A stretch of DNA of 64,000 nt, taken from assembly GCA_002788675.1 (NCBI GenBank), contig PFRS01000001.1, forward strand, positions 106,204 to 170,203. The letters run 5' to 3'. This document shows positions 13,496 through 43,926 of the stretch, piece after piece. Both the position numbers and the translations under genes were made by a program. Each line of letters begins with the position of its first letter. Within the stretch, counting starts at the first letter, position 1. The stretch comes from Candidatus Pacebacteria bacterium CG_4_9_14_0_2_um_filter_40_15. GTDB lineage: Bacteria; Patescibacteriota; Microgenomatia; UBA1400; PJMF01. Below the pieces are notes generated by a model that did not search any database, was not told where the DNA came from, and saw only the letters and a list, made by a program, of their open reading frames with translations.

Positions 13496-15166
13496 TTATG
13501 TTCGCCTAGAACCAATCCATTTTTTTAATAATGAAAGTTTGCTTTTCTGGGCTGCAACACGATCCTTCAGGCTTGCCGCTTTGTTTCGAGCCGAATCGAA
13601 CGCCATACCTCCCAAAACACGACCTACAACTTTACTACCAACTAAGGTATCTTTGAGATATTGTCCTGGTGACCGGCGTGGCGTCTCTGGCACTTCACCT
13701 TCTTTATTGTATGCATACAACTCAAAGGTATCGAGTGCTTTTTCAAACTCAATTTGTCCTTTATCAAGAATCTCATCGAGATTCACACCAACTGGACCTA
13801 ATAATCCTGGTATAGCAGCCTGACCATCATCTGGTTTTGCACATCTCCCAAAGAATGGCAAAATTGCTCGTAAGAATTGAATTTCGCGTTTACAAAATTG
13901 TGCCATCCGAGGGTCCTTTGAGTTTTTTAGTTCCTCAAATGCTTTGGCAATTTTGACTTCAATATTAGCTGACTTTGACTCGGGCGATTCTAAAAACGCC
14001 TTGAGCGCACCATTATATCCAGCTGCTCTCACAATTGCATGTTCAACCAGTTGGTCTAAACTTCTAATCTCTGAGGATTTCAAATCATCTTCTTTTGCTC
14101 GTTTTGCTGCAAAATCTATCAAATGAAACGTAGATTCTTCAATGGGAATATTATTTGGATGTAGCAGTGAATCCTCTGACAACTGTATTACCGTTTCTTT
14201 TGTGGAAATAGTATCGGGATCTACTTGCGCATCAACCTCTTCAGCATCATTCTCAGAAAAATATCTAAATTCATGATCAAACTCGAACTGAATCAGCGGT
14301 GGTTCAATTCCTAAAAAATGGGCAATCAAATCTGGCATACTCTCGTGCAGATACTGATGGTGAGTCGCCCACCGTCCGATATCATGCAGCAGCATGCGTA
14401 CCTTCATTCGATTCACATCAATCGTTCGATAGTTGCCATCTTCTTGCTTCAAGTAACCAAAAACTTTCGGTGGTAGTTCCTCACCATTCCGATTAGCAAG
14501 CTCAATTCGCTTATTAAGGGGAAGTACCATTTCCTCAACAAAAATTGGCGTAAAAAGCACATGCGTAATCAAACGATGATAGAAGTTTAATTCTTGAGGA
14601 GTGCCAGCGAATGTATCTGGGTTTTCATATCGTGCGACTTGATCCCACGCAGGATAACTATAGATCTGCGCATCTGCACCATACCCATACCTTTTCGCCA
14701 TGTCCCTTTCTCGCTGACGGACACTTTCGGGATATTTTTTCCACACTTCTTCAGGAACTGCCCCACCAAGTGGAGTAAGTCTGAGCACTAACTTTCGCAC
14801 TGCTTCAACCGTTTCATCCGAGACAAGGTGAATACCACCGGAGTCTAGAATATTTGTTTCGTCGAGGACTTTTTTGAGTTCAATTGCAATATATTCTGTC
14901 CGAGCTAAGACACGCAGGCACTCATCTTCACCATAGTATTTCAGGAGATCTCGACCTTCTGAGTCTTTGATTTTCCGTTTTTCTGAACCAGAAAAAATTT
15001 CTGGCAAATGGTCTTGAGAAGCTTTGAATGTTTCTTCAGGTGAAACACCATCCAGAAAAGTAAATGTCTCACGAACGTGCTCGCCAACAGCATGCTCTAC
15101 GGGGACATGTGCATCATCACCGCCAAAAAAATCTTCACCAATCTGGGTAATCTCATGATTATGCAT
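13496..15166 (-). CDS. Large HD-domain phosphohydrolase-like protein
   Basis: A 556 aa ORF with an H...HDIGRW HD motif. No other recognisable domains. Confidence 0.45.
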   Translation of the reverse strand: MHNHEITQIGEDFFGGDDAHVPVEHAVGEHVRETFTFLDGVSPEETFKASQDHLPEIFSGSEKRKIKDSEGRDLLKYYGEDECLRVLARTEYIAIELKKVLDETNILDSGGIHLVSDETVEAVRKLVLRLTPLGGAVPEEVWKKYPESVRQRERDMAKRYGYGADAQIYSYPAWDQVARYENPDTFAGTPQELNFYHRLITHVLFTPIFVEEMVLPLNKRIELANRNGEELPPKVFGYLKQEDGNYRTIDVNRMKVRMLLHDIGRWATHHQYLHESMPDLIAHFLGIEPPLIQFEFDHEFRYFSENDAEEVDAQVDPDTISTKETVIQLSEDSLLHPNNIPIEESTFHLIDFAAKRAKEDDLKSSEIRSLDQLVEHAIVRAAGYNGALKAFLESPESKSANIEVKIAKAFEELKNSKDPRMAQFCKREIQFLRAILPFFGRCAKPDDGQAAIPGLLGPVGVNLDEILDKGQIEFEKALDTFELYAYNKEGEVPETPRRSPGQYLKDTLVGSKVVGRVLGGMAFDSARNKAASLKDRVAAQKSKLSLLKKWIGSRRT

Positions 15167-15195: not shown

Positions 15196-15837
15196 CTAGA
15201 TACCAAGGACCGTCTTTACCTTTGTCCAAAGTTCTTCTTGCACTTCTTCAAGCGACTGAGAAGCATCAATAATGTGCCAACGATCATGTGTGTCTGCTTT
15301 TGCTAACTCCAAATAGGCGTCACGGACCTTCACATGGAAATCCATTCCTTCCATGTCCAAGCGATCCATCTTACCAGACTCCACTCTTCTTTGTAGTCCT
15401 AATTCCACTGGTAAATCAAGTAAAAATGTTGCATCTGGGTATGTTTCTTTGGTTGATAAATCGTTGAGTTTCTCAACCATATCTTTCCCGAATCCTCGCA
15501 CCATTCCTTGGTAGACAACAGAACTATCTCGTGAGCGATCGAGAATCACAATTTTTCCAGCTTCAAGTGATGGCAACACAATTTCACGATAAATTTGTGC
15601 GCGAGCAGCTTGAAACAACAAAACTTCAGCCGTAAAGGCAATACCAATGTTTTTAGCCGAAAGAACAACATCGCGAATTTGTTCACTAATCACCGTTCCG
15701 CCTGGTTCACGAAGAACAACCACATCTTTACCAGCCTTTGAGAGACGATCACGTAGCCGCACTATTTGAGTAGTCTTGCCACCACCCTCACCACCTTCTA
15801 AGGTAATAAGCAGTCCCTTATGTTTTTTCTCTGACAT
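15196..15837 (-). CDS. tmk: Thymidylate kinase
   Basis: P-loop LITLEGGEGGGKTTQ plus a DRSRDS lid region. Confidence 0.85.
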   Translation of the reverse strand: MSEKKHKGLLITLEGGEGGGKTTQIVRLRDRLSKAGKDVVVLREPGGTVISEQIRDVVLSAKNIGIAFTAEVLLFQAARAQIYREIVLPSLEAGKIVILDRSRDSSVVYQGMVRGFGKDMVEKLNDLSTKETYPDATFLLDLPVELGLQRRVESGKMDRLDMEGMDFHVKVRDAYLELAKADTHDRWHIIDASQSLEEVQEELWTKVKTVLGI

Positions 15838-15881
15838 ACCAATCCTTCATTTTTGTATGTGATACGTTTCTTTTGGTTAGC

Positions 15882-16679
15882 CTAGTTAGTATACAGATTT
15901 CCCTTTGCTTTCTCTAATTCAGTTGTGAGTCCACCTGCCGCACCACTAGCTTTTAATGCACCTTCTATCACAGCTAAATTATCGGCAGAGTTTGTCCAGT
16001 CAACTAATTGTCGATAGTGGGGTTGCCAATCTGATGGCACTAATGTTCTATTAACTGCTTTACGAATCATGCGAGTGCCTCTTTCAAGGTGTTGGTACTT
16101 TAACACCAACTCTTCATCAACCAGTTTTCTGCCTAATACAGGACAATCTTCTGAATACAAAACTGGATTCCTATTTGAGAGTACTTTATCCACGGTAACA
16201 GACATACTTCCAAATGTTACATACGGAACCGGCATGTGCATACCAATTGAAGCTAATCTATTCATTACCTCTGGCACCGCTGAAACTGGAGTATCTATTG
16301 AATCCATGATAACTGGTTCAAGATTCTCAAGAGCTGCAGAGTGACTCCCATACCCATTTGCAGTATGAATGGTCGAAAGCATATCGACATTTGGCGCGTA
16401 TGTTTCTAACCATGAAAAATAAAACACAGCAATATCATTAAACTCACCTTGTGTGTCTGCCAAGTTATAGTTAGGGGTACCATGCTTTTCCTGTTCATCG
16501 GCATACTCAATCAACTCACCAATAGCGAGTTGTAACAAAAATTCCGGGGGAGCAAAACGATCAACTGCCTCAAGCAGATTTGCTTGCTTACGCATTGCCG
16601 TTACTCTGTTTCTAGCTTGTTCAAATGGATGTGGCATGTTGCTGATTCTCCCTATCAAAAAGTGTAATTGAGTACCCAT
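15882..16679 (-). CDS. Hypothetical protein
   Basis: A 265 aa ORF of unknown function. Its true start is probably MPHPF near 16636 to avoid the overlap. Confidence 0.4.
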   Translation of the reverse strand: MGTQLHFLIGRISNMPHPFEQARNRVTAMRKQANLLEAVDRFAPPEFLLQLAIGELIEYADEQEKHGTPNYNLADTQGEFNDIAVFYFSWLETYAPNVDMLSTIHTANGYGSHSAALENLEPVIMDSIDTPVSAVPEVMNRLASIGMHMPVPYVTFGSMSVTVDKVLSNRNPVLYSEDCPVLGRKLVDEELVLKYQHLERGTRMIRKAVNRTLVPSDWQPHYRQLVDWTNSADNLAVIEGALKASGAAGGLTTELEKAKGNLYTN

Positions 16680-17667
16680 GTTGCGCTGCTAACACATCAA
16701 TCTCTTGCCGTTGTGCACCAACAAGCAGCTCTAAAAATGCCAATACTTGTACCCCTACCATATGTGCATAGGCAAACTGCTCCAGTGTTTGTTGCTCGAC
16801 TGTCTCCTCCGGTGCTGTTTCAACAGCAATAATAAGTTCTGTTGGAATAATATCTTCTACGGCATCTGATAATAACGTCAATGTATCTTGGAAATACTCC
16901 TGCATCTGTTGCCAAGCCCCGCCTAAACCTGCATCCATATATACTTCTAAATGTTGGTGTAAATCTTCAACTATTTGTTGCACTAACTCAAGTTGAGCCG
17001 TATACAGAAGTTGATCCTGCAAGTTTAAAACAGCAATTCCAGAAATATGACCCAGTTCTGCTCCGACTTGAAATACTGACTCTTTATACCAGGCTGTAAA
17101 CTCACCTTCAGATGACCAAGAAAGCTCCGAGGGATCAGCCGATGCCTCTAGCTGACGCTTGAAATTCGTAGGCTTACCCATCTTAATCATAGAATCAACT
17201 GATGAGTAAGCCGAAGAAGTTCCCACCACATCACTTGATATAACTAGAACATTTTCACCATCAAAGGCATCACTAAATGATTCTACTTTATTCACAGATT
17301 CAATAACAGGATTTTCATTACTTTCAGTTTCACCTATCTGAGGATATGCCCAGACAGGTACTCCCTCGTACTCACCAATAAAAACAGGCTCTTTGAGAGC
17401 CATGTCACCATTATAAATATACGCATTAAAATACTCTTGAATCTCTTCTGGTGTTGATACGCCTTCAAGGCCAGGCCCTTTAAGATCAAAACTAAGTTCA
17501 CTCATATGAGCAAATGAAAAGTCGTTCAATGCCCAAGAAAAAATTACGGCCTTCCTAACACTTGAGGTTGCAAAAACAATTCTGTCAGGTTGCTCGCCCT
17601 TCCACACAGATTCTTCTGTTGAAAGACCAAAATGATTCCGGATTTCTCTACTCGCTAAGGTTGACAT
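16621..17667 (-). CDS. Hypothetical acidic protein
   Basis: A 348 aa ORF of unknown function that lies between tmk and dut. Confidence 0.45.
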   Translation of the reverse strand: MSTLASREIRNHFGLSTEESVWKGEQPDRIVFATSSVRKAVIFSWALNDFSFAHMSELSFDLKGPGLEGVSTPEEIQEYFNAYIYNGDMALKEPVFIGEYEGVPVWAYPQIGETESNENPVIESVNKVESFSDAFDGENVLVISSDVVGTSSAYSSVDSMIKMGKPTNFKRQLEASADPSELSWSSEGEFTAWYKESVFQVGAELGHISGIAVLNLQDQLLYTAQLELVQQIVEDLHQHLEVYMDAGLGGAWQQMQEYFQDTLTLLSDAVEDIIPTELIIAVETAPEETVEQQTLEQFAYAHMVGVQVLAFLELLVGAQRQEIDVLAAQHGYSITLFDRENQQHATSI

Positions 17668-17845
17668 ACTTGTCTATGAAACCACAACATGTAGTGCTTT
17701 ATCAACCCGTAAGTAACCACATTTTGCGCTAACCATACAATGAAAAAATGCAGCACGGGTATAAAAAGCAAAATTGAGTACTAAATATGTATTTTAAGAA
17801 AAAAGAGCTCATGCAAATACTTGAGAAAACGAAAAAATCAGAAAT

Positions 17846-18289
17846 TTATTTTCGACCAGTAGTACCGAAACCTCCGCGATCGGCATCTTCAAATGAATCA
17901 TTTTCCGATAACTCAACCACCGGACGTTTAAGAATAATCATCTGAACTACACGTTCAGCCCTTTCAATAACCACATCTTCACCTGTAAAATTAAAAACCG
18001 CTGCCTTGTATTCGTCATTTGGACCACGATAGTCATAGTCACCTACTCCAATACCATTCGCTAACATAAGTCCACGTTTGTGCAATGAACTACGTGCAGA
18101 TACCAGCGCCCAATGATCTTCGGGTAATTGTAGGGCAATATTGAGTGGGATGTAGCCGATTGAGCTTGCCTTAATGACTGTTTCTTCTCGCGCATAGAGA
18201 TCAAATGCAGCAGCGCCCTTCGTTTTATATTCAGGGACTGGTAACGAAGTATCAAATCGTTTAAATGTTACTTTTAGAGACTGTTTCAT
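17846..18289 (-). CDS. dut: dUTP diphosphatase
   Basis: dUTPase motifs AAFDL, RSSL and GVGDYDYRG. Confidence 0.85.
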   Translation of the reverse strand: MKQSLKVTFKRFDTSLPVPEYKTKGAAAFDLYAREETVIKASSIGYIPLNIALQLPEDHWALVSARSSLHKRGLMLANGIGVGDYDYRGPNDEYKAAVFNFTGEDVVIERAERVVQMIILKRPVVELSENDSFEDADRGGFGTTGRK

Positions 18290-18795
18290 TGCATGACCTC
18301 ATACTCAAAAACTTTTGTTTGGTCTGACAAATTATGGACAAGTGAAAGTTGAAGCTTAGCGGAAACAGCTTCGTTAAACAACGTAACACCGGTGCCAAAA
18401 ATAACTGGTTCATGGGTAAGTAGGAGTGTATCTATAACTCCTGCATTCATAAAAAGTGTGTAAATAGATGATCCGCCAGTAATTAAGACTTCTTCAATTC
18501 CTCTTTTTGCGAGGTCGGCAATTAATTCCTTTGGAGCAAGAGAAACTACCTCAATATCATTGTTGTACGCATTTTCAACTTCTAAACTGCGTGAGTACAC
18601 ATACATCTTTCGACCTTTCATCTGCCTGTTAAAGGTAGCAAATGTTTTTGAGCCAACAATCATATGTCCTGCATGCTTGGCGCGTTCTCGAAAAAAGAGA
18701 GAGTCTTCTTTACTCGTCCACCGAGTAGAAAGATGAGCGTCATCTTTAGCTATAAATCCATCTGCAGTCAATGCTGCTATAAGTGTAACTTTCAT
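18286..18795 (-). CDS. folA: Dihydrofolate reductase family protein
   Basis: MKVTLIAALTADGFIA and GSKTF match the DHFR/RibD C-terminal family. The ORF overlaps dut by 4 nt. Confidence 0.65.
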   Translation of the reverse strand: MKVTLIAALTADGFIAKDDAHLSTRWTSKEDSLFFRERAKHAGHMIVGSKTFATFNRQMKGRKMYVYSRSLEVENAYNNDIEVVSLAPKELIADLAKRGIEEVLITGGSSIYTLFMNAGVIDTLLLTHEPVIFGTGVTLFNEAVSAKLQLSLVHNLSDQTKVFEYEVMQ

Positions 18796-18847
18796 ACGTG
18801 TACTCTACCATAAATTCTCTATCAAAACGATTTGAGGGTGTGTTAGG

Positions 18848-19417
18848 ATGGTTTCTATGAACGAAGAAAAAATGATCTCAAGCTATGCTCAGATTGCAGA
18901 TCTAGTTACCACTTACCGGAAAGCACATAAAAAAATTGTGCTCACACAAGGCTCTTTCGACATGCTCCACATTGGGCACGGTAGGTACTTAAGCACGGCC
19001 AAAACCTATGGTGATGTATTGTTTGTAGGAATAGATTCAGACGAGAAAATTCGCTCACGAAAAGGTCCGGATAGGCCAGTTGTTCCTGAAGATGAACGTC
19101 TGGAAATGGTCACCTATATCTCAGCAGTTGACCATGCGGTAATCAAGCAACTCGATAAACCAAAATGGGAACTAATCAAAATAATAAAACCCGATGTCCT
19201 TATTGCAACTCGTGAAACATATAGTCCAAAAAAAATTGCTGAACTTGAAAAAATCTGTGGGAAAGTAGTTGTTCTCGAGCCAATGGCCACTACCTCCACC
19301 AGCGCAAAACTGCGACTTGTCCAGTTAGGTATGGCAAAAAAAATAGGCAAAACGCTCTCAGACAGAATGATTGCTACTATGGAAGAAGTCATTGAAGAAT
19401 TAAAGGCGCTCCGGTAA
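18848..19417 (+). CDS. Cytidylyltransferase-like nucleotidyltransferase (TagD/RfaE domain II-like)
   Basis: HxGH motif in TQGSFDMLHIGHGRYL, plus ISAVDH and KPDVL motifs. Confidence 0.6.
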   Translation: MVSMNEEKMISSYAQIADLVTTYRKAHKKIVLTQGSFDMLHIGHGRYLSTAKTYGDVLFVGIDSDEKIRSRKGPDRPVVPEDERLEMVTYISAVDHAVIKQLDKPKWELIKIIKPDVLIATRETYSPKKIAELEKICGKVVVLEPMATTSTSAKLRLVQLGMAKKIGKTLSDRMIATMEEVIEELKALR

Positions 19418-20220
19418 TGCAACAACAAGCAACACTTGTATACGTTCCTGCTGTTCATGCTGGCATCGTTTCATATATATCTGAGACTAAAGGCGACATT
19501 TGGGTGCTCGGGTCTGAAGTTATCACCCTTATTGATGCCCAGTTTGATTATCTTCGTAAAGAAATTAGAGCATTAACCCCTAAACAAGCAGTTATATCCC
19601 TTAGTGCCCTCTTTCTCAAACGCACTGTCAAAGAACTCACACTCGCAGACCTCATTTCCTTAAATGCCAAAAAAACTGACTTAGTCTTACCGCGTGAAGA
19701 CATCTTTTATTGGCTTGCAAAAACACACCTTACAAAAGCAAAACTAACTTTTTCTCCCACTTTCTTACGATGGAATCGAGATAATAGCACTCAGAAAACT
19801 ACCTTAAACACACCTATGGCTACCGCATTTGAGGCAGCCAACCAAAGCAGTGACTGGTGGCGCCAAGTTGGCTGTGCCTTGGTAAAAAATGGCAAAATTA
19901 TTTCTACTGCCTTTAATCATCATCTGCCTTCTCCCTACACTCCATACATCGACAGTGATCCCCGCAATAGCTTTCATAAAGGGGAACATATTGAGCTTTC
20001 TACTGCCATTCATGCCGAGGCAGCACTCATTGCTGACGCAGCTAAAAAAGGCATTTCACTTGAGGGAACACAACTGTATGTTACTACATTTCCCTGTCCT
20101 GCTTGCGCAAAATTAATTGCCTGTAGTGGTATTACAAAGCTTTACTTTTCTGAAGGGTATAGCATGTTGGATGGGGAAAAAATTCTCAACGATGCTGGAG
20201 TACTTTTGAGTAAAATATAA
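19417..20220 (+). CDS. dCMP deaminase (ComEB/cytidine-deaminase family) with a roughly 130 aa N-terminal extension of unknown function
   Basis: The C-terminal half carries the zinc ligands HAEAALIA and FPCPACAKLI. The N-terminal domain matches nothing recognisable. Confidence 0.65.
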   Translation: MQQQATLVYVPAVHAGIVSYISETKGDIWVLGSEVITLIDAQFDYLRKEIRALTPKQAVISLSALFLKRTVKELTLADLISLNAKKTDLVLPREDIFYWLAKTHLTKAKLTFSPTFLRWNRDNSTQKTTLNTPMATAFEAANQSSDWWRQVGCALVKNGKIISTAFNHHLPSPYTPYIDSDPRNSFHKGEHIELSTAIHAEAALIADAAKKGISLEGTQLYVTTFPCPACAKLIACSGITKLYFSEGYSMLDGEKILNDAGVLLSKI

Positions 20221-20224
20221 AAAA

Positions 20225-20701
20225 TTATTTTTTTGATTTTCCAAGCTTAACTCGAACTGGCTCATAGGTATCAGACTCAATATCAGGCTGAATAAACTGT
20301 GCATGCAAGTGGTGTACACTTCCTGCTGAATAATTTGTATCTCCAAATCGCATCACAAATCCTCCACCAGGAACATCAAAATGTGCGGCCGCCCACTGAA
20401 ACACTTCTATAAGTTCTGTGCCTGCTTCTGGATTAACTTCAGAAAGATGCTCAGCATGCTCTTTGTAGATTGCAAGCAAATGCACTTTTGTGTGTTTATA
20501 TGGCCAACGATTATACGTAAGCAACCAAAATTTTCCATCAAAAAGAGTCTCTTCCTCTTGATGTGCGGCAAAATTTTCCATGCAAAAAGGACAATCTCCT
20601 GTTTCAGCAATTTCTTGCATCGCCTTAAGTTGATCATCAAAGCGATAATTATCTAAATCAACAACTGGTTTTTTCTTCATAGTTCTCTCATTTATTAACA
20701 C
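20225..20701 (-). CDS. HIT-superfamily protein of the GalT / Ap4A-phosphorylase branch (HxHxQ)
   Basis: An N-terminal CPFC zinc motif and the histidine triad variant VHHLHAQF (H-x-H-x-Q). Confidence 0.6.
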   Translation of the reverse strand: MLINERTMKKKPVVDLDNYRFDDQLKAMQEIAETGDCPFCMENFAAHQEEETLFDGKFWLLTYNRWPYKHTKVHLLAIYKEHAEHLSEVNPEAGTELIEVFQWAAAHFDVPGGGFVMRFGDTNYSAGSVHHLHAQFIQPDIESDTYEPVRVKLGKSKK

Positions 20702-20704
20702 AAG

Positions 20705-21616
20705 CTAAATAGCGACGGGAATATCCCACATGCCCTTGTGCGGAGTGTAGTCAGATAGTTTAAAATCTTCAACACGGAAGTCAAAAAGATTCGTTTTTTC
20801 TGCATTCATCTTCATCGTGGGAAGTGCCCGAGGTTCGCGAGAAAGCATTTCTTTTACGTGATCAAGCTGATCAACATAAATGTGTGCATCACTAAAGCTA
20901 TGCACATATTCATAGGCTTCATAGCCAGTTGCCTGCGCAATCATCATGGTTAAGGCAGCATACTGTGCCAGATTCGCCGGTAATCCGACTGGCGTGTCAC
21001 TGCTTCGCTGGAACATGTGTAACGTCAATTTGCCATCAATTATCCTGATATGAATCCATCCATGACAAGGACAGACAACAAATTTTTGCTGCTTTCCTGT
21101 AACTCGAATAGTATATTGAGGAATCCAGGGTGAAATGAAGTGAGTGCGCAGCTGCGGCCGCTCTTTAATTTGCTGGATGATGTTTTCAAACTGGTTAAAC
21201 GTGGGACCTTCGGCAGTTGGGAAATCATGAAAGGCCGCACCATAGCTACCTGGGCCCATGTCACCAGATTCGAGTCCACGCTTATGACATTTTGAATCCG
21301 TCACCCATGAACTCCACCAATTGCAGCCATAGCTTTCAAGTTCTTCTTGGGTGCGAGCACCATTAATAAAACCGATTATTTCGCCAATAGCTTGGCTCCA
21401 AATTTTTTTACTTATTTTGCGTTCAGTAATAATGGGAAAACCATTGGAGAGTTTAAAATGCAGTGGATTTGGCCCCATAAGGGTCAATGCATCTACACCT
21501 TGCTGTGAAGGAGTTTTTATTCCTCTATCAAGAATTGATTGAAGTAGTTCTCGATATTGAGTGTCTGGAGTCTTAGTTGTGAGTTCAACTGAAGGAGTAT
21601 ATATTTTAGTCATCAC
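20705..21616 (-). CDS. thyA: Thymidylate synthase ThyA
   Basis: The PCH nucleophile motif (VVCPCHGW), the QRSSDTPVGLPANLAQYAAL block and the ThyA C-terminus PVAI. Confidence 0.85.
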   Translation of the reverse strand: MMTKIYTPSVELTTKTPDTQYRELLQSILDRGIKTPSQQGVDALTLMGPNPLHFKLSNGFPIITERKISKKIWSQAIGEIIGFINGARTQEELESYGCNWWSSWVTDSKCHKRGLESGDMGPGSYGAAFHDFPTAEGPTFNQFENIIQQIKERPQLRTHFISPWIPQYTIRVTGKQQKFVVCPCHGWIHIRIIDGKLTLHMFQRSSDTPVGLPANLAQYAALTMMIAQATGYEAYEYVHSFSDAHIYVDQLDHVKEMLSREPRALPTMKMNAEKTNLFDFRVEDFKLSDYTPHKGMWDIPVAI

Positions 21617-21676
21617 CCACAGTTATAACGCATCGCGCGTAATCAGAAAAGTCCAAACTCACCTATGCAGTGAAAA

Positions 21677-22252
21677 TTATCGAGTTTGTGTATATAAAGC
21701 ATGTTCATGAATATACTCAAGAACCGCTGGCTCAACAAACGCATCAAGATCTGCACCTGAAAGCACGGTGTCTCTTACTAAAGTAGACGAGACGGCTACC
21801 TCTGTCATACCAAATAATCCAACCATATTTGGAAAGAGATTGTCCAGTGGATAACCCTTACGTGGATACATATAAAAAGTATAGTTTGCTAGTTGAGGAT
21901 GCCCCTCTAAGAAGGCATCAAATCGAGAAATATACTCAGAACCCATGATCCATGAAAAATGAGTGTCGGGATACTTTTCTTCAAAATACTGCAATGTGGG
22001 GTAGGTATAACCTACTTCTTTGTACTCAGCAATTTTCTGATTTTTCCCTAGAATCAACTCTAACATGGCTTTGCGATCCTCATACGGAGCCATGACTTCT
22101 TTTCCATATTTTGCTGCCCAAGGATGTTTAAAAACTGGAACAAACCAAACTTCGTCAATAAAGTCTTGTGTAACTACCGTCGCAACTTGTGAATGTCCTT
22201 TGTGTGGAGGATCAAATGCACCTCCAAACAAGGCCACCTGTTTTTTTTTCAT
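21677..22252 (-). CDS. nadD: Nicotinate-nucleotide adenylyltransferase
   Basis: VALFGGAFDPPHKGH, an HxGH motif. Confidence 0.8.
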   Translation of the reverse strand: MKKKQVALFGGAFDPPHKGHSQVATVVTQDFIDEVWFVPVFKHPWAAKYGKEVMAPYEDRKAMLELILGKNQKIAEYKEVGYTYPTLQYFEEKYPDTHFSWIMGSEYISRFDAFLEGHPQLANYTFYMYPRKGYPLDNLFPNMVGLFGMTEVAVSSTLVRDTVLSGADLDAFVEPAVLEYIHEHALYTQTR

Positions 22253-37906: not shown

Positions 37907-38209
37907 GGTGGTATTTCTCCCAATGTTTGGATTACTCCCAGCCGGATTGCTGGAAGGGGCACGCGCATCAATGTAAGTAATTCGCGTGCGCCTTCCAGCA
38001 AAAAATATCTATGTTAATGAACTGTGCACGAGTTCCGAGCGCTACTGCTCTTCTTCAGGCACAATAAGAGAGATAGTATATAAGTAATACATCTATAAAT
38101 CAATCTAATATATCAATATTTTTTTGAAGTATACCTGAATCGCGAGAGATATCTCTACTCGGCAAAATGCATCACAAATGGTACAATTCGATAGTTAAAA
38201 CATAAAAGT

Positions 38210-38281
38210 AGGGCCGTAGTTCAGCGGTAGAATAGAGGTCTCCAAAACCTTTGACGGGGGTTCGATTCCCTTCGGCCCTGC
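38210..38281 (+). tRNA. trnW: tRNA-Trp (anticodon CCA)
   Basis: A cloverleaf with a perfect 7 bp acceptor stem, agggccg/cggccct, an anticodon loop ctCCAaa and a T-loop ttcgatt. Confidence 0.85.
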
Positions 38282-38333
38282 AGAATCCCATAGTATTCAT
38301 ACTATCTCCCTTTTCATATGATAAAATCAATAT

Positions 38334-38753
38334 ATGCAAAAAAAAGTAGATAAAGAATATTTAAATATTAGCTTTGTTGTTATTATTTTGGGCACACTTC
38401 TTCTGGGTGGTTACTATTTTAATAGCAAAAAGGTTGCGAGAATTATAAAAAACCCTGAAACAAAGATTTCTGACACAGAGTGGATATTCAATGAACCTAA
38501 AAATCTAGCAGTCTTTACAACGAAATCAATATTGAATTCTAAAGAAGACATTTTGTATGTAACACATGATTTTGATGATGGAGCTTGGCAATTTTTGCCT
38601 GGCTCTGTTGTTTCCACTGATGACAGCGCCATTATATCTTTAGAGGAGGCCGTAGCAATAGATCCAAGTATTCAAGAGCTGAATTTACTTCCTTTAGGTT
38701 CTAGTGCTCGAAGAGAATCAATCAATTCAAATTGGATCCTGTCTAACAACTAA
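38334..38753 (+). CDS. Hypothetical membrane-anchored protein (island cargo)
   Basis: A 139 aa ORF with an N-terminal transmembrane segment. Confidence 0.45.
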   Translation: MQKKVDKEYLNISFVVIILGTLLLGGYYFNSKKVARIIKNPETKISDTEWIFNEPKNLAVFTTKSILNSKEDILYVTHDFDDGAWQFLPGSVVSTDDSAIISLEEAVAIDPSIQELNLLPLGSSARRESINSNWILSNN

Positions 38754-38771
38754 AGCGTCAATTTCTTAGGC

Positions 38772-38806
38772 AGAAATAGGTTCTAACATCGTTCACTAGT
38801 CCCTGC
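38772..38806 (+). repeat. Island direct repeat, copy A (AAATAGGTTCTAACATCGTTCACTAGTCCCTGCAA)
   Basis: A near-identical roughly 33-35 bp sequence recurs after successive island genes. Its GGTTC...TTC...CCCTGCA core resembles the tRNA-Trp T-arm/acceptor 3' half. Confidence 0.7.
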
Positions 38807-38870
38807 AAAGTACACAACATAGCCTTCATTATCACTTGATAAATACTTTATTTAGCCTTATAATAACCTC

Positions 38871-39131
38871 ATGCAAACACAAACTACTCAAATTAGAGTC
38901 ACACTACCAGTGCAACTTCAAGGTTATTTACAGGCAAAAGCTAATAAATATGGACTTAGTCTGTCGGCCTACATCAGAAATTTAGTAATTAATGATGTTC
39001 AAGACGTTGAGCACCCTGTTTTTGAAATGTCTACTCAATCAGTTAATGATCTTCAGGAGGCTATTGCAGCCGAAAAAGCTGGAAAATTAGTTAGTACTGA
39101 TAATGTCAATCAGTTGCTCCAAGATTTGTAG
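38871..39131 (+). CDS. Ribbon-helix-helix antitoxin (RelB/ParD/CopG-like)
   Basis: An N-terminal RHH motif, IRVTLPVQLQGYLQAKANKYGLSLSAYIRNLV, in an 86 aa protein that sits 2 nt upstream of the toxin gene. Confidence 0.6.
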   Translation: MQTQTTQIRVTLPVQLQGYLQAKANKYGLSLSAYIRNLVINDVQDVEHPVFEMSTQSVNDLQEAIAAEKAGKLVSTDNVNQLLQDL

Positions 39132-39133
39132 CC

Positions 39134-39412
39134 ATGGAAATTTCGTTTTCCCCTAAATGTTTAAACCAATTGCAAAAGCTCAAGAAAGTAGATATCAAAT
39201 TGTTTACAAAAATCCAAAAGAAGTTAGCATTATTTGAGCAGAAATCAAATCATCCTTCATTACGGCTTCATAAGTTGAGCGGAGGACAAAGAGAAACCTG
39301 GAGTGTTTCTGTGGATATGTCATACCGACTACTCTTTTACTATAAACAAGATAAGAACCAGATGCAGGTTGTTTTTTTTAGTTTTGGAACTCATGATCAA
39401 GTGTATAAATAG
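39134..39412 (+). CDS. RelE/ParE-superfamily type II toxin
   Basis: A 92 aa protein whose HKLSGGQRETWSVSVDMSYRLLFYYKQDKNQMQVVFFSFGTHDQVY region matches the RelE/ParE core pattern (L.G....W..R....YR..Y.......i.vl.ig.H..Y). Confidence 0.65.
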   Translation: MEISFSPKCLNQLQKLKKVDIKLFTKIQKKLALFEQKSNHPSLRLHKLSGGQRETWSVSVDMSYRLLFYYKQDKNQMQVVFFSFGTHDQVYK

Positions 39413-39441
39413 GTTCTAACATCCTTCACTAGTCCCTGCAA
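39407..39441 (+). repeat. Island direct repeat, copy B
   Basis: taAATAGGTTCTAACATCCTTCACTAGTCCCTGCAA. The TAG inside the repeat is the toxin gene stop codon. Confidence 0.7.
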
Positions 39442-39446
39442 GATAG

Positions 39447-39474
39447 AAAACAACTCATTTGAGTTGTTTTTTTA
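39447..39474 (+). terminator. Intrinsic terminator after the toxin-antitoxin module
   Basis: A hairpin aacaactca-ttt-gagttgtt followed by ttttttt. Confidence 0.6.
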
Positions 39475-39584
39475 TCTTGAAGAATCGAGAGCGCATAACC
39501 CATGGTTCGCAATGCGAGTTATAAATAGTTCTTCCTCCAGTACGAGCATCTCACAGCACGCTCATCACAGATGAGTGTGCGAGA

Positions 39585-39603
39585 AGTCCCTCCGGCCCTG
39601 CAA
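39585..39603 (+). repeat. Near-exact copy of the tRNA-Trp 3' end (att-like core)
   Basis: AGTCCCTCCGGCCCTGCAA here matches the tRNA ATTCCCTTCGGCCCTGCAG at 16 of 18 positions. Confidence 0.6.
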
Positions 39604-39619
39604 AATATAAACTTCTGTA

Positions 39620-40027
39620 ATGAGCCAGAACAATGCTAAAATATCTTCTATGATGAAAATAATAAAAATCACACCTCTCTATTTCTCAGCCATATTCATG
39701 GCATCACTTCTAGTGAGTGGATGTACTACAAATAGTCCTAAAACTAACCCAACCACTCAAGAATACAATCTGCCTGTCGAAACGGAGGTTCAAGAAAATA
39801 TTGAAACTTCAATTGATACCGGTATGGTTGAATCGGATGCAACAGATTCTGGAACTGAGGTATCGCCAGAAAAAGTAGAAAATAGTTTTGAAGCATGTTC
39901 AAAAACCTACTATGACAGGTGTTATATTAATAACCCTAAAACAATAAATCAGCAACGATGTCTTGAGGGTATGAAAATAACAGTAAACATAAATTGCCCT
40001 GACACACCATATGGAACAAAGAAATAG
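39620..40027 (+). CDS. Small secreted lipoprotein (island cargo)
   Basis: A signal peptide with a LLVSGCTT lipobox, in a 135 aa Cys-containing protein. Confidence 0.5.
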   Translation: MSQNNAKISSMMKIIKITPLYFSAIFMASLLVSGCTTNSPKTNPTTQEYNLPVETEVQENIETSIDTGMVESDATDSGTEVSPEKVENSFEACSKTYYDRCYINNPKTINQQRCLEGMKITVNINCPDTPYGTKK

Positions 40028-40052
40028 GTTCAATTTATTCTTCCGCTACAGA
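40022..40052 (+). repeat. Island direct repeat, copy C (degenerate)
   Basis: AAATAGGTTCAATTTATTCTTCCGCTACAG. The stop codon TAG lies inside it. Confidence 0.45.
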
Positions 40053-40462
40053 AAACACCAGGGTTTCAAGCCTTGGGATGAATGGCAGTTGAGGCGAAAG
40101 CCGAAACTGCTATCTAGTATACTTGATGCATGACTAGAAAATATTGGACGGGAGCTCATACAACACATCGGTTGAGATTTCATATCGTACTTTTACCAAA
40201 ATATCGCAAATTTTAGGGACATATCAAAAGAAAAATTATTACATTTATTTGTGAAAAAAACGTATAGAAAATAGTGTGGGAAGATTTGGGACTGGTTGAC
40301 TACTCTACTGCCCCTCACTACAAATCAGATCACCCAGAATCAACATTTATTGATACATCTGTCGCCTATTTTGTAAAAAATAATATGCCGTTTAAGACTT
40401 TGCGAGATGGGGATGTTTTGATTTTGCAAGACTCTCAGTTAAAAAAGTAAGCATGCCTTTCA

Positions 40463-41065
40463 CTACTGCATAACTCGCTCAAAAAAAGAAATCGCAACAT
40501 CACTACTTTGCCTGGTGACCGCCGCGTACACGAATACACACATAAATATCAAATCAATAAATAAGCCAGCAATTGCATACGAAAACGTCACAAAAACAAT
40601 CCTCTTTACCCAAGGTGCAATCCACTGTCCAACTTTGTCGTACTTTCCTCTTAAAAAATAGACTATGTCGCTGACACCCGAGAGTGGTATTTGAAAAACA
40701 AAAAGTAAGTAGGCCAAGTTCCGAAACACTTTCCACCCCTCAATCAGATCTGGTCTAAAGTTGTAAGAACCAGAGTAAATGCTCGAGAGTCTAAAATGGA
40801 AAAAAATTGTTACCACAATCAGCGCTGGAGCAAAAAAGCCAGTTGCTTTCCCTAGTAAAAACCCAGGAAGTGTAAAAAATCGTTCTAAAGAAGCTTTACC
40901 ACTTTCTACTATAGATCGATTTTTATTAGCAGATTGTACCGTCAGGTACTCTCGATACTCAAGAAACTGTTTTTTTAACGAAAATGCTATCATGAATACT
41001 AGTATACCAGGGTTATAAAAAAATCTACCCGGAACAAAGGCCCGGCAGAGATCTAAATTATGCAC
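40463..41065 (-). CDS. Polytopic membrane protein, unknown function
   Basis: A 200 aa ORF with several hydrophobic helices. It is the only minus-strand gene in the island. Confidence 0.45.
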   Translation of the reverse strand: MHNLDLCRAFVPGRFFYNPGILVFMIAFSLKKQFLEYREYLTVQSANKNRSIVESGKASLERFFTLPGFLLGKATGFFAPALIVVTIFFHFRLSSIYSGSYNFRPDLIEGWKVFRNLAYLLFVFQIPLSGVSDIVYFLRGKYDKVGQWIAPWVKRIVFVTFSYAIAGLFIDLIFMCVFVYAAVTRQSSDVAISFFERVMQ

Positions 41066-41146
41066 ACCTTTCTGAAAAAACCTTACAAAAAAAAGATTAT
41101 TCTTGACTAGAATGATATACTATAGGTACTAAAAACAAATAGTTAT

Positions 41147-42022
41147 ATGAACACACAAGCAATTATCCGCGAAAATACACAAAGAACATACCTATACATG
41201 TTTCTTTTGATACTAATCCTTGGCACTATCGGACATGGTCTCTCTAGTTTTTTTGAAGTAGGGCTCACCGGAACAAGCACATTTATTATTACTTCTCTGC
41301 TTATAAACGTAGTTGCCTTCTTTTTTTCTGATAAAATCATTTTACGTACCGTCGGAGCAAAAAAATTAGACAAAACAGTTGCTCCAGACTTTGTAGAACT
41401 TGTTGCCAATCTGGCAAATAATCAGAATCTGCCCCAACCAAAACTCTACTACATGGATACTGATGCTATGAACGCGTTTGCCACTGGTAGAGATCAAAAA
41501 CATTCAGCAGTAGTAATCACCCGAGGATTACTCGAAAAAATGAAGCAAAATGAAGTTGAAGCAGTAGTTGCTCACGAACTTGCACACATCAAGTACCTTG
41601 ATGTTCGACTAATGACCATTGTTACCGTGCTTGCAGGGCTTCTTACTCTGCTATCTGATATGTTCTGGTACAGCAATGTTGCTCAAAAAGCATCTGAGAG
41701 AGATAACTCTGGCTCAGTACAGATGATTGGTATGGCCCTGGCACTTTTTGCTCCATTTACGGCACTCCTTATTCAAAATGCGATCTCTCGAAAAAGAGAA
41801 TATATTGCTGATGCGGCAGCATCAGACATGATTGGATCAAGTCACCCTCTTATCGAAGCACTCGAAAAGATCAGAAGAGATCAGATCCCTTTACCAGGAT
41901 CGCAGGCTGCAACAGCTCACTTGTTTTTCTCACAACCATCAAAAGATGGCTTTATTGAAAAGCTCTTCTCTACCCATCCTCCTCTAGAAGAACGTATTGA
42001 ACAGTTAAAGAAACTAGCTTGA
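41147..42022 (+). CDS. htpX: HtpX-like M48 zinc metalloprotease
   Basis: Transmembrane helices followed by the HExxH motif in VAHELAHIKYLD and a downstream glutamate (EYIADAAA). Confidence 0.75.
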   Translation: MNTQAIIRENTQRTYLYMFLLILILGTIGHGLSSFFEVGLTGTSTFIITSLLINVVAFFFSDKIILRTVGAKKLDKTVAPDFVELVANLANNQNLPQPKLYYMDTDAMNAFATGRDQKHSAVVITRGLLEKMKQNEVEAVVAHELAHIKYLDVRLMTIVTVLAGLLTLLSDMFWYSNVAQKASERDNSGSVQMIGMALALFAPFTALLIQNAISRKREYIADAAASDMIGSSHPLIEALEKIRRDQIPLPGSQAATAHLFFSQPSKDGFIEKLFSTHPPLEERIEQLKKLA

Positions 42023-42687
42023 AAGGGCATATGCCTAAAAAAGAAGCAGCAGTAAAAACTATACAAATGGGTAGCAAGGTTGAAGAAAAAGTCCCTTGCT
42101 CAGAATGCAAAAAAGAAGTTGGAGCCCAGGAGCGACATGTCTTCAAAGGAAAAAGTAATACTGATATCTATTATTGTGACAGTTGTGTAGAAAAAATTAA
42201 TGAAGCATTGGCAAATGAAACAAAAAATCCAAACATTATTAAAGCAGTGCTTGTCGGTGCAATGGCTGGATTCATCGGAACGATAGGATGGTATCTCTTT
42301 GTAATACTTACCCAATATCAAATTGGCTATATTGGCATCGCCCTTGGCTGGCTTATTGGTACAGCGTATGTCAAAGGTGCTGGCGAAAAACGTGGACACC
42401 AACTCCAGCTACTAGCTGCAATAACAACACTCATTTCCCTACTTGGAGCTGATTTATTCATTTTTACACATTTTAGTGCAGAATACTTTAATTCTGAATT
42501 TGGTATACAAGTTTCTAGCTTAGATATTATTCTGAGTTTCTTAGTTGATAATACTGAAGGTATGCGTTCACTATTTTTACAAGACTTTTTGTCTTCTGTA
42601 GCATCACCGATTGGATTACTTATCTGGGGAATTTCTATCTTCACTGCGTACAGCATTCCAAAGCCACGCGTGCTATCAACAAAATAG
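42019..42687 (+). CDS. Zinc-ribbon membrane protein, translationally coupled to htpX
   Basis: An N-terminal CSECKK...CDSC zinc ribbon and four or five transmembrane helices. The ATGA overlap with the htpX stop indicates translational coupling. Confidence 0.5.
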   Translation: MKGHMPKKEAAVKTIQMGSKVEEKVPCSECKKEVGAQERHVFKGKSNTDIYYCDSCVEKINEALANETKNPNIIKAVLVGAMAGFIGTIGWYLFVILTQYQIGYIGIALGWLIGTAYVKGAGEKRGHQLQLLAAITTLISLLGADLFIFTHFSAEYFNSEFGIQVSSLDIILSFLVDNTEGMRSLFLQDFLSSVASPIGLLIWGISIFTAYSIPKPRVLSTK

Positions 42688-42716
42688 GTTCGAACATCCT
42701 TCACTAATCACTGCAA
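42682..42716 (+). repeat. Island direct repeat, copy D
   Basis: AAAATAGGTTCGAACATCCTTCACTAATCACTGCAA. The stop TAG lies inside it. Confidence 0.65.
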
Positions 42717-42744
42717 AATCCTATAGTATAATTACTATATTTAC

Positions 42745-43386: not shown

Positions 43387-43414
43387 GTTCTAACTTCGTT
43401 CACTAGTCCCTGCA
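43381..43414 (+). repeat. Island direct repeat, copy E
   Basis: AAATAGGTTCTAACTTCGTTCACTAGTCCCTGCA. Confidence 0.7.
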
Positions 43415-43473
43415 TTTCCGTGATATATTTACTTAGAAATAAAATAAGTTGTTAATTATTACAGGAAGAAACT

Positions 43474-43820: not shown

Positions 43821-43926
43821 TATTGATTTTTTACAAATTTCTCTATATAATACAATTGCCTTACTAATTAATAGCTCAATGAAGCATTGAATATATTAAT
43901 TAAATGTATAAGGCTGAGGCAGAGAA

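What the first reader, a model, noticed from the sequence alone, without database searches (positions are those of the whole stretch)
15196..22252. Thymidylate/nucleotide-salvage supercluster with unusual members
The run reads tmk, two unknown acidic proteins, dut, folA, a TagD-like nucleotidyltransferase, a dCMP deaminase fused to an unknown 130 aa N-domain, an HxHxQ (GalT-branch) HIT protein, thyA and nadD. All are contiguous across two divergent operons. The unknowns and the HIT and nucleotidyltransferase pair are not standard dTMP-pathway components. They may add an extra nucleotide-processing step, such as salvage from a host or a modified pyrimidine.
Basis: inference. Interest (0 to 1): 0.5.

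Follow-up and report, generated by a model that had tools for sequence, protein, structure and literature searches.

The report
Conserved thymidylate module with HIT enzyme
The gene run is real, and its core (thymidylate synthase, a HIT nucleotide enzyme, a nucleotidyltransferase and a dCMP deaminase with a transferase-like extra domain) recurs as one block across the ultra-small Patescibacteria, sometimes fused into single proteins, which points to an undescribed extra step in making the DNA base thymine.

Summary
All ten genes are present at the stated coordinates, on a housekeeping chromosome stretch of a Patescibacteria (CPR) bacterium.

**The core is a conserved unit.**
- The core is thyA>HIT> convergent with <[N-domain-dCMP deaminase]<NTase, with DHFR nearby.
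- In 80 genomes picked by HIT: thyA 80/80, deaminase 78/80, NTase 76/80.
- In 80 metagenome loci picked by NTase, where enough DNA was held: deaminase 64/65, HIT 57/58, thyA 48/49.
- The block is inverted relative to its flanks in one group of genomes. It also sits in at least four unrelated flanks.
- Among the 150 best family representatives, 43 are at least 300 aa. All eight of these that I scanned are DHFR-HIT fusions. One Paceibacterota protein is a HIT-ThyA fusion.

- One unknown is MazG/DCTPP1-like. The other is probably Maf-like. Both are variable neighbours, as is nadD.
- "GalT branch" does not hold: Q and H alternate at that motif position within the family.

**Unexpected.** The linked ThyA proteins lack two of the four arginines that bind the dUMP phosphate.

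**Reading.** This is an undescribed thymidylate module. NTase pairs with the deaminase and HIT pairs with ThyA/DHFR. Their chemistry is inferred, not shown. I found no literature on it.

The parts
20705..21616 (-). thyA: thymidylate synthase of a distinct subfamily. It keeps Cys146, His147, Glu58, Tyr94, Arg166, Ser167, Asp169, Asn177 and His207. Phosphate-binding Arg21 is Gln and Arg127' is Thr (E. coli numbering).
   Evidence: Pfam 224 bits. Aligns to PDB thymidylate synthases at E 2.5e-53. Column counts over 81 block-linked ThyA: Q21 in 72, T127 in 80. The same pattern holds in four distant contexts.
20225..20701 (-). HIT-fold protein with a CPFC zinc knuckle and an HLHAQ triad. It lies directly downstream of thyA. 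The probable start is M8, at 20680.
19417..20220 (+). Two-domain protein. Residues 1-~130 form a cytidylyltransferase-like Rossmann domain with a degenerate HxGH motif (YxPVxHxGY). Residues ~132-267 form a zinc dCMP/dCTP-type deaminase (HAE, PCxxC).
18848..19417 (+). Stand-alone nucleotidyltransferase of the cytidylyltransferase / RfaE domain II / ECT type. It has intact HxGH and TSTS motifs and overlaps the deaminase gene by 1 nt.
   Evidence: 27 invariant positions across 29 diverse members. 76/80 loci. Its relatives are almost always followed by the deaminase, HIT and thyA.
18286..18795 (-). DHFR-like reductase (RibD_C / DHFR_1). Presumed to recycle the dihydrofolate produced by ThyA.
   Evidence: Within 10 kb in 70/80 loci. 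In other lineages DHFR is fused to the HIT domain.
17846..18289 (-). dut: dUTP diphosphatase. Overlaps dhfr by 4 nt.
   Evidence: Pfam dUTPase 71.7 bits. 64/80 loci.
16621..17667 (-). unk348: very acidic protein (pI 4.2), probably a divergent Maf-like nucleoside-triphosphate pyrophosphatase carrying insertions. A variable neighbour.
   Evidence: Family of 23 including the window. Invariant S36, K39, N86, K127, D146, K165, G250. hhalign against a Maf alignment: probability 47%, E 2e-4, aligning the K / DT / GKP motifs. One of 19 members hits Pfam Maf at E 0.049. No profile hit in the PDB.
15882..16679 (-). unk265: MazG/DCTPP1-like all-alpha NTP pyrophosphatase core (ExxE...ExxD) with a ~150-aa C-terminal extension. 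Probable start M15, at 16637. A variable neighbour.
   Evidence: Family of 27 including the window. Invariant E55, E58, E79, D82. Profile against the PDB: YpjD 2gta E 1e-4; RS21-C6 / dCTP pyrophosphatase 1 E 0.005-0.01.
15196..15837 (-). tmk: dTMP kinase.
   Evidence: TIGR00041 165 bits. 59/80 loci.
21677..22252 (-). nadD-like nicotinate-nucleotide adenylyltransferase. A neighbour, not part of the core: it travels with topA/dprA.
   Evidence: TIGR00482 104 bits, just under the cut-off. Gene maps. Absent from contexts L081-L089.

Best explanation
**What the region is.** It encodes the dTTP-precursor branch of a Patescibacteria bacterium.

**Standard steps.** These follow from the family assignments.
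- Dut, and the MazG-like and Maf-like pyrophosphatases, bring (d)NTPs down to monophosphates.
- The zinc deaminase converts deoxycytidine nucleotide to deoxyuridine nucleotide.
- ThyA methylates it, DHFR recycles the dihydrofolate, and Tmk phosphorylates dTMP.

**The conserved core.** It is thyA-HIT convergent with NTase-[NTase-like domain + deaminase], plus DHFR. HIT and NTase are integral to it.

**Pairing, shown by gene order and fusions.**
- NTase is translationally coupled to the deaminase, and the deaminase carries an NTase-fold domain. This pair sits at pathway entry.
- HIT is co-transcribed with ThyA, or fused to ThyA or DHFR. This pair sits at pathway exit.

**Inferred mechanism.** NTase and HIT make and break a pyrophosphate-linked nucleotidyl conjugate of the deoxypyrimidine nucleotide.
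- NTase would catalyse NTP + dCMP, or dCTP + a phospho-acceptor, to give a conjugate plus PPi.
- HIT would cleave the conjugate by a covalent His-NMP intermediate, releasing dTMP or dTDP.
- The deaminase N-domain would serve as the docking or nucleotide-binding site.

**How likely.** I put module membership of HIT and NTase at about 0.85. I put the make-and-break conjugate chemistry at about 0.25-0.3.
For: **Shown.**
- Family assignments.
- Block conservation in loci chosen by HIT: thyA 80/80, deaminase 78/80, NTase 76/80. Housekeeping flank genes score lower: topA 61, recR 50.
- The block is inverted as a unit between the same flanks.
- Reciprocal retrieval by NTase: deaminase 64/65, HIT 57/58, thyA 48/49.
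- The same block lies between SecA/GroEL, argS/L11-NusG and L10-L12/L1 flanks.
- An HMM search of 1.84 billion representatives finds 613 relatives at E<=1e-10. Of the 150 best, 43 are at least 300 aa. Eight sampled proteins are DHFR-HIT fusions (seven of at least 282 aa and one probably partial at 247 aa), and one further protein is a HIT-ThyA fusion.
- The HIT fold and an invariant His pair.
- The N-domain has a cytidylyltransferase fold.
- The NTase is under strong constraint, with an intact catalytic motif.
- ThyA lacks Arg21 and Arg127' in every block-linked copy.

**Inferred.**
- The entry/exit pairing fits a handle that is attached before deamination and removed after methylation.
- Enzymes of the NTase fold (NadD, PPAT, FAD synthetase) adenylylate phosphate monoesters, and HIT enzymes cleave such NMP-X compounds. 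This is established knowledge of both superfamilies.
Against: - No substrate was identified for either enzyme. Sequence and fold do not fix NTase or HIT specificity.
- From memory of the L. casei mutagenesis literature, Arg21 and Arg127' are the two phosphate arginines that tolerate substitution. PDB 1bo7, an L. casei thymidylate synthase entry that carries Thr at the Arg127' position, was the best-scoring L. casei chain for this protein. I recall it as the engineered R179T mutant. ThyA may therefore still use plain dUMP.
- tmk, dut and the pyrophosphatases in the same neighbourhood fit a conventional pathway through free monophosphates.
- Two to four of the 80 loci carry thyA-HIT without the deaminase or NTase nearby (L038, L063).
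- All evidence is comparative. Nearly all loci are Patescibacteria metagenome-assembled genomes (MAGs), so some of the conservation reflects shared ancestry.
Confidence: 0.5

Rival explanations
1. Regulatory or accessory reading. The pathway runs on ordinary free dCMP, dUMP and dTMP. The NTase-fold N-domain is an allosteric (d)CTP/dTTP sensor that replaces the usual allosteric site of dCMP deaminases. The NTase and HIT act on a side metabolite, such as a dinucleoside polyphosphate or a CDP-alcohol, which tunes or feeds the pathway. They do not act on its intermediates.
For: - The N-domain has a degenerate HxGH motif (HxGY) but keeps conserved basic residues K48, R51 and R118. That fits binding without catalysis.
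- The classical 'GYNG' stretch of dCMP deaminases reads AFNH here.
- tmk, dut and the pyrophosphatases fit a pathway through free nucleotides.
- The closest PDB relatives of the NTase make CDP-ethanolamine or ADP-heptose.
Against: - It does not explain why HIT is fused to DHFR or ThyA in many lineages.
- It does not explain why the catalytic NTase is so tightly conserved and almost never found away from the block.
- It does not explain the loss of two phosphate arginines in ThyA.
Confidence: 0.25
2. Two-step dCTP-to-dCMP route. NTase transfers dCMP from dCTP onto a recycled phospho-acceptor, and HIT hydrolyses the product to dCMP. This feeds the deaminase in place of a dCTP pyrophosphatase.
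For: - NTase and HIT chemistries add up to NTP -> NMP + PPi (established chemistry of both superfamilies).
- The deaminase core resembles anti-phage dCTP deaminases more than ComEB: NF041025 88 bits against 51 bits. That hints at dCTP-level metabolism.
Against: - HIT would then act before the deaminase. Yet HIT is coupled to ThyA/DHFR, not to NTase or the deaminase.
- MazG/DCTPP1-like genes that could do this in one step are often present as well.
Confidence: 0.1
3. Nothing special. It is an ordinary thymidylate operon, and the HIT and NTase neighbours persist only through the conserved synteny of small, slowly rearranging CPR genomes.
For: Unrelated housekeeping neighbours (topA, dprA, recR) are also found within 10 kb in 50-61 of the 80 loci.
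Against: - The block is kept when its flanks are inverted or replaced entirely.
- Retrieval works in both directions.
- There are two independent kinds of gene fusion.
- An NTase-fold domain is fused to the deaminase.
Confidence: 0.07
4. Modified-pyrimidine synthesis, or an anti-phage dCTP-depletion system.
For: - The deaminase core gives partial hits to PADLOC 'dCTPase' (95 bits) and to NCBIfam anti-phage dCTP deaminase (88 bits, cut-off 400).
- One distant ThyA, in L089, has N177D.
Against: - ThyA keeps Asn177 in 80/81 copies and is always linked to a DHFR, so it produces dihydrofolate.
- The defence enzymes' kinase-like N-domain is absent.
- No other PADLOC hit, and no relatives on viral contigs.
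- The chromosomal context is housekeeping.
Confidence: 0.04

Closest known systems
Bifunctional DHFR-TS of protozoa and plants, and the phage T4 dNTP-synthetase complex
   Same: Thymidylate-cycle enzymes are physically or genetically coupled (ThyA, DHFR, dCMP deaminase, dUTPase/dCTPase, dNMP kinase). Gene fusion serves as evidence of coupling.
   Different: Here the fusion partner is a HIT domain (DHFR-HIT, HIT-ThyA). The deaminase carries an NTase-fold domain and is paired with an NTase. Neither enzyme type is part of any described thymidylate pathway (from my own knowledge; literature searches found nothing).
Single-domain zinc HIT proteins: Hint/Fhit type and Ap4A phosphorylase Rv2613c
   Different: Only about 19% identity. 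The third triad residue alternates Q and H within the family. The family is fixed next to, or fused with, ThyA/DHFR. Substrate unknown.
Cytidylyltransferase family: RfaE domain II / HldC, ECT, TagD
   Same: The NTase has HxGH, RKGxxRP, PD and TSTS motifs, and matches ECT at E 8e-16. ECT has an active and a degenerate cytidylyltransferase domain in tandem. The pairing of this NTase with the degenerate N-domain of the deaminase resembles that arrangement.
   Different: It scores below the cut-offs of both the RfaE-II and TagD equivalog models. The second, degenerate domain is fused to a deaminase rather than to the NTase. It shows no significant sequence similarity to the NTase (hhalign E 0.32).
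dCMP deaminase (T4 Cd, human DCTD, ComEB) and anti-phage dCTP deaminase
   Same: HAE / PCxxC zinc deaminase core. Best PDB match is T4 dCMP deaminase at E 5e-15.
   Different: It has an extra N-terminal NTase-fold domain and a conserved insert (HLPSPxTPYIDxDPRNxFHKG). It scores far below the ComEB and anti-phage model cut-offs and lacks the kinase-like domain of the defence enzymes.
MazG/DCTPP1 and Maf house-cleaning NTP pyrophosphatases
   Same: unk265 has the ExxE...ExxD motif and hits YpjD and DCTPP1. unk348 shares the Maf S-R/K, K, DT and GKP motifs.
   Different: Both are much longer than the canonical enzymes and fall below Pfam thresholds. The Maf assignment is only probable.

Membership tests
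HIT superfamily | HIT alpha+beta fold | tested here: met
HIT superfamily | Histidine triad HxHxH/Q with an invariant nucleophile His | tested here: met
   HLHAQ at residues 131-135. H131 and H133 are invariant in 25 sequences.
HIT superfamily | Pfam PF01230 gathering score | tested here: not met
   The window protein scores 17.1 bits against a cut-off of 21.5. Fused relatives reach 22-34 bits.
GalT branch of HIT proteins | HxHxQ motif as a family character | tested here: not met
   Q is present in the window subclade (116 of 120 close homologues). Across the 150 best family representatives, H occurs in about 100 and Q in about 42.
GalT branch of HIT proteins | Two HIT-like repeats in one chain | tested here: not met
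   The window protein has a single domain of about 151 aa. Only a few relatives (P0292, P0364) have a tandem, degenerate second repeat.
GalT branch of HIT proteins | Nucleotidyl transfer to phosphate or sugar phosphate rather than hydrolysis | not testable with these tools
   Needs an enzyme assay.
Thymidylate synthase ThyA (EC 2.1.1.45) | Family models, and the catalytic residues Cys146, His147, Glu58, Tyr94, Asp169, Asn177, His207 | tested here: met
   Pfam 224 bits; TIGR03284 189 bits, cut-off 108. These residues are kept in 80-81 of 81 copies.
Thymidylate synthase ThyA (EC 2.1.1.45) | Four-arginine dUMP phosphate site (Arg21, Arg126', Arg127', Arg166) | tested here: not met
   Arg21 is Gln in 72/81 (Pro in 6). 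Arg127' is Thr in 80/81. Position 126 is Arg or Lys, and Arg166 is kept.
dCMP deaminase (ComEB / DCTD type) | Zinc motif HAE...PCxxC and the deaminase domain model | tested here: met
   PF00383 64.5 bits. H199, E201, C227 and C230 are conserved in at least 90% of copies.
dCMP deaminase (ComEB / DCTD type) | Equivalog score TIGR02571 | tested here: not met
   50.9 bits against a cut-off of 219.
Anti-phage dCTP deaminase | Full-length model NF041025, including the N-terminal kinase-like domain | tested here: not met
   88 bits against a cut-off of 400. Only the deaminase core matches. The N-domain here has an NTase fold.
Cytidylyltransferase-like NTases (PF01467): the stand-alone NTase | Domain model, HxGH motif and the C-terminal (I)STS motif | tested here: met
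   65 bits, cut-off 21. H41-I-G-H44 and T149-S-T151 are invariant.
Heptose-1-phosphate adenylyltransferase (RfaE domain II) and TagD | Equivalog scores TIGR02199 and TIGR01518 | tested here: not met
   106.7 bits against 181.5, and 31.9 bits against 165.4.
Cytidylyltransferase-like fold: the deaminase N-domain | Five-stranded Rossmann-like NTase fold with an HxGH motif | tested here: inconclusive
MazG / DCTPP1 all-alpha NTP pyrophosphatases (unk265) | ExxE...ExxD metal-binding motif, and similarity to solved members | tested here: met
   E55, E58, E79 and D82 are invariant. Profile against the PDB: 2gta E 1e-4, DCTPP1 E about 0.01. Pfam thresholds are not reached.
Maf nucleotide pyrophosphatases (unk348) | Maf motifs (S-x-R/K, K, D-T, G-K-P, G-x-Q) and fold | tested here: inconclusive
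   Motif residues are invariant. hhalign probability 47%, E 2e-4, over 49 columns. No profile hit in the PDB. No structure model was made.
Dihydrofolate reductase | DHFR_1 / RibD_C domain models | tested here: met
   50.2 bits (cut-off 25) and 70.8 bits (cut-off 24.1). No NCBIfam equivalog cut-off is reached.

The most novel reading that the evidence does not exclude
Patescibacteria make thymidylate on a nucleotide 'handle'.

1. The NTase caps dCMP, much as NadD caps NaMN, to give a dinucleoside 5',5'-diphosphate (or dCDP-X).
2. The deaminase holds the cap with its NTase-fold domain and converts C to U.
3. A ThyA that has lost two phosphate-binding arginines methylates the capped dU.
4. The HIT enzyme, docked on or fused to ThyA/DHFR, removes the cap, possibly by phosphorolysis straight to dTDP.

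Free dUMP would then never accumulate. This would be a previously unknown logic for deoxynucleotide metabolism in a very large bacterial radiation.
Probability: 0.2. Interest if true: 0.9.

Novelty: new variant of a known kind. Interest (0 to 1): 0.68.

Why it matters
Thymidylate synthesis is one of the best-understood and most drug-targeted pathways in biology, and its enzyme set is considered closed. In a radiation that makes up a large share of bacterial diversity, two extra enzyme types are locked to it. One is a HIT nucleotide transferase/hydrolase. The other is a cytidylyltransferase-type NTase, together with an NTase-fold domain on the deaminase. The lock shows up as gene order, as operon coupling and as repeated gene fusions. 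It comes with a thymidylate synthase whose phosphate site is altered.

At the least, this defines three uncharacterised protein families with a precise and testable functional context. At most, it reveals a new route for pyrimidine deoxynucleotide processing in organisms that live by scavenging nucleotides. It also gives a concrete set of four or five small soluble proteins for reconstitution in vitro.

Tried and rejected
**Searches that found nothing.**
- The N-domain alone against the 5.8-billion-protein index gave no hit and cost one search.
- The unk348 profile against the PDB gave nothing meaningful. Pfam on single members gave only one weak Maf hit.
- PHROGs had nothing for HIT or the unknowns, apart from a weak hit on the C-terminal part of the N-domain.
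- PADLOC matched only the deaminase core, so I rejected a defence system.
- Viral contigs held no HIT relatives, so I rejected a phage origin.
- The 556-aa protein between tmk and recR has no Pfam or PDB similarity. I left it out.
- Six literature searches found no paper that links HIT proteins to CPR bacteria or to DHFR/ThyA.

**Tests that were uninformative or unavailable.**
- hhalign of NTase against the N-domain was not significant. A recent duplication is therefore not supported; only the fold is shared.
- The promoter and terminator scan found no more sites than shuffled sequence.
- The AFDB fold library was not available.

**Ideas considered and dropped.**
- ThyA as a hydroxymethylase. 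I dropped this because of the DHFR linkage and the retained Asn177.
- NadD as part of the module. I dropped this because it moves with topA and is absent from the other contexts.

Full report
**1. The observation.** The window is a housekeeping chromosome segment of a small-genome bacterium. It carries cysS, hpf, recR, topA, dprA, PBP2, mreBCD and four tRNAs. It has about 41% GC and a uniformly negative GC skew.

Pfam and NCBIfam confirm tmk, dut, a DHFR-like reductase, a cytidylyltransferase-like NTase, a dCMP-type deaminase domain preceded by about 130 unassigned residues, thyA, and a nadD-like gene. Two ORFs have no hit.

The layout is three units, not two:
- (-) topA-nadD-thyA-HIT;
- (+) NTase-deaminase, overlapping by 1 nt;
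- (-) dhfr-dut-unk348-unk265-tmk.

**2.

*Retrieval by HIT.* HIT homologues are common in Patescibacteria. An alignment of them retrieved 80 genome loci with 10-kb flanks. The counts by tblastn with the window proteins are below.

| Gene | Loci of 80 |
|---|---|
| thyA, always immediately upstream of HIT | 80 |
| deaminase | 78 |
| NTase | 76 |
| dhfr | 70 |
| dut | 64 |
| topA | 61 |
| tmk | 59 |
| nadD | 56 |
| dprA | 56 |
| recR | 50 |

By phmmer with the N-domain alone, the deaminase N-domain is present in 78.

*Inversion.* Gene maps show two arrangements. In them, [thyA>HIT> <deaminase<NTase] is inverted as a unit between the same two flanks: dhfr-dut-tmk-recR on one side and nadD-topA-dprA on the other.

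*Other flanks.* General synteny is also high in this set. I therefore looked for the block in other contexts. It lies between:
- SecA-hpf-GtrA-LemA and GroEL/ES (L081-L084);
- argS-dut-DUF1599 and L11-NusG-SecE (L085);
- L10/L12 and tmk-L1-L11 (L087);
- argS-tmk and L11 (L089).

*Reciprocal test.* I chose 80 metagenome loci by the NTase alone. Wherever enough DNA was held downstream, the deaminase core followed in 64/65, the N-domain in 66/72, HIT in 57/58 and thyA in 48/49.

The core is therefore a unit. The two unknowns are not: they occur in 22 and 26 of the 80 loci, and both together only in L001, L002, L020 and the window. nadD is not part of the unit either.

**3. Fusions.** An HMM search of 1.84 billion cluster representatives with the HIT alignment found 1184 relatives at E<=1e-3 and 613 at E<=1e-10.
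- Of the 150 best, 43 are at least 300 aa long, mostly with the HIT domain at the C-terminus.
- I scanned ten representatives. Eight have an N-terminal DHFR_1 domain (142-180 bits for seven of them; 74 bits for P0291, a shorter 247-aa protein with a truncated DHFR match).
- P0266/P0391 (HRH31222.1, Candidatus Paceibacterota) is HIT-ThyA, with HIT at the N-terminus.
- These are two independent fusion topologies. They tie this HIT family to the ThyA/DHFR pair.
- A few proteins carry a second, degenerate HIT repeat.

**4. What the unusual members are.**

*HIT.*
- The HxHxQ motif holds in the window's subclade. Across the family, H is about twice as frequent as Q at that position. The 'GalT branch' label is therefore not a family property.

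*Deaminase N-domain.*
- Its conserved residues are YxPVxHxGY, K48, R51, PxED and FLRW. This looks like a degenerate HxGH motif with retained basic residues.
- Sequence similarity to the adjacent NTase is not significant.

*NTase.* It is highly constrained and has a complete catalytic signature. It is nearest to RfaE domain II and ECT, and it is below every equivalog cut-off.

*unk265.* It has the invariant MazG-type ExxE...ExxD motif. As a profile it hits YpjD and dCTP pyrophosphatase 1.

*unk348.* It shares the Maf motif set. It aligns to a Maf alignment (1ex2, 4p0e, 2p5x; sequences verified) with hhalign probability 47% and E 2e-4. The assignment is probable, not proven.

**5. An unexpected feature of ThyA.** I aligned 81 block-linked ThyA proteins to E. 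coli ThyA.
- The catalytic residues are kept.
- Arg21 is Gln in 72 copies and Pro in 6. Arg127' is Thr in 80.
- The R-T-H motif, and the absence of Arg21, recur in the distant contexts L081, L085, L087 and L089.
- The four phosphate arginines are regarded as a hallmark of thymidylate synthases (established knowledge, from memory).
- From memory of the L. casei mutagenesis work, the same two positions are the ones that tolerate substitution. The best-scoring L. casei chain for this protein was PDB 1bo7, which carries Thr at the Arg127' position and which I recall as the engineered R179T mutant.
- The change is therefore a clear subfamily marker. It is compatible with either weaker dUMP binding or a substrate whose phosphate is substituted.

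**6. Mechanism.**

*Shown.* There is a conserved five-function module in which NTase is coupled to the deaminase and HIT is coupled to ThyA/DHFR.

*Follows from the family assignments.* The conventional steps are dCTP or dUTP to monophosphate (Dut, MazG-like, Maf-like), C-to-U deamination, methylation, DHF recycling and dTMP phosphorylation.

*Inferred.*
- Enzymes of the NTase fold attach an NMP to a phosphate monoester, and HIT enzymes remove an NMP from NMP-X through a His-NMP intermediate.
- One enzyme is tied to pathway entry and the other to pathway exit.
- The simplest reading that uses all the observations is therefore a make-and-break pair for a pyrophosphate-linked conjugate of the deoxypyrimidine nucleotide.
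- In its strong form, deamination and methylation happen on the conjugate. I give that form about 0.2.

*Rivals.*
- A regulatory reading, with the N-domain as an allosteric dCTP/dTTP sensor.
- A two-step dCTP-to-dCMP route.
- Plain synteny. This is disfavoured by sections 2 and 3.
- A defence or base-modification system. This is disfavoured by the DHFR linkage, the retained Asn177, the lack of PADLOC or viral relatives, and the housekeeping context.

**7. Comparison and novelty.** The nearest analogues are DHFR-TS fusions and the T4 dNTP-synthesising complex. Neither includes a HIT or an NTase.

Six full-text searches found no paper that connects HIT proteins with CPR bacteria or with DHFR/ThyA fusions. 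Database names for the family are generic or absent, for example 'Ap4A HIT family hydrolase', 'ATP adenylyltransferase' or 'hypothetical'.

I class this as a new variant of a known kind: a thymidylate gene cluster with two integral, uncharacterised enzyme families, a new deaminase architecture and a distinct ThyA subfamily.

**8. Caveats.**
- All evidence is comparative, and most of it comes from metagenome-assembled genomes.
- Many GenBank titles read 'uncultured Pseudomonadales', although the loci are syntenic with Patescibacteria.
- The sufficiency thresholds in the reciprocal count are approximate.
- unk348 was not modelled.
- No substrate is established for HIT or NTase.

Noticed in passing
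L089:3510-4406 (GCA_964513325.1, CAZEMF010000027.1): The ThyA next to a DHFR-HIT fusion has Arg166->Asp and Asn177->Asp, on top of the loss of Arg21 and Arg127'. N177D is the classical switch from dUMP to dCMP specificity, so this copy may act on a cytosine nucleotide.
   Followed up: no
L078:8258-9040, L018:12229-12984 and 23 other loci; absent from the window: A CofE-like F420-0:gamma-glutamyl ligase family gene (PF01996) sits next to dhfr in 25/80 relatives. In organisms not known to use F420, it might be a non-canonical folate polyglutamylase. This is an idea only.
   Followed up: partly
P0292 (272 aa), P0364 (429 aa; L087:6113-7402): Some family members carry a tandem second HIT-like repeat that has lost the histidine triad. 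The resulting pseudo-dimer architecture recalls GalT.
   Followed up: no
window 13496-15166 (-): A 556-aa acidic protein lies between tmk and recR in the same transcription direction. It has no Pfam, PHROG, PADLOC or PDB similarity and is found in only 4/80 related loci.
   Followed up: partly
L085:7286-7864: A DUF1599 (PF07659) gene sits directly upstream of the HIT-ThyA fusion, next to dut. It shows no BLASTP similarity to unk265. It may be another small nucleotide-handling protein recruited to the module.
   Followed up: no
window 38000-46000: GC drops to 0.32-0.38 just after tRNA-Trp (38210-38281), against about 0.41 elsewhere. This may be an inserted island. Not examined.
   Followed up: no
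loci L004-L074, record titles: Many of the public MAG records that hold this block are titled 'uncultured Pseudomonadales bacterium'. Their gene content and synteny match Patescibacteria, so this is probably a taxonomy mislabel in the source records.
   Followed up: no
L018:8176-8955, L078:11949-12725 and others: An NAD synthase (nadE) gene accompanies nadD beside the block in 36/80 relatives. It is missing from the window.
   Followed up: partly
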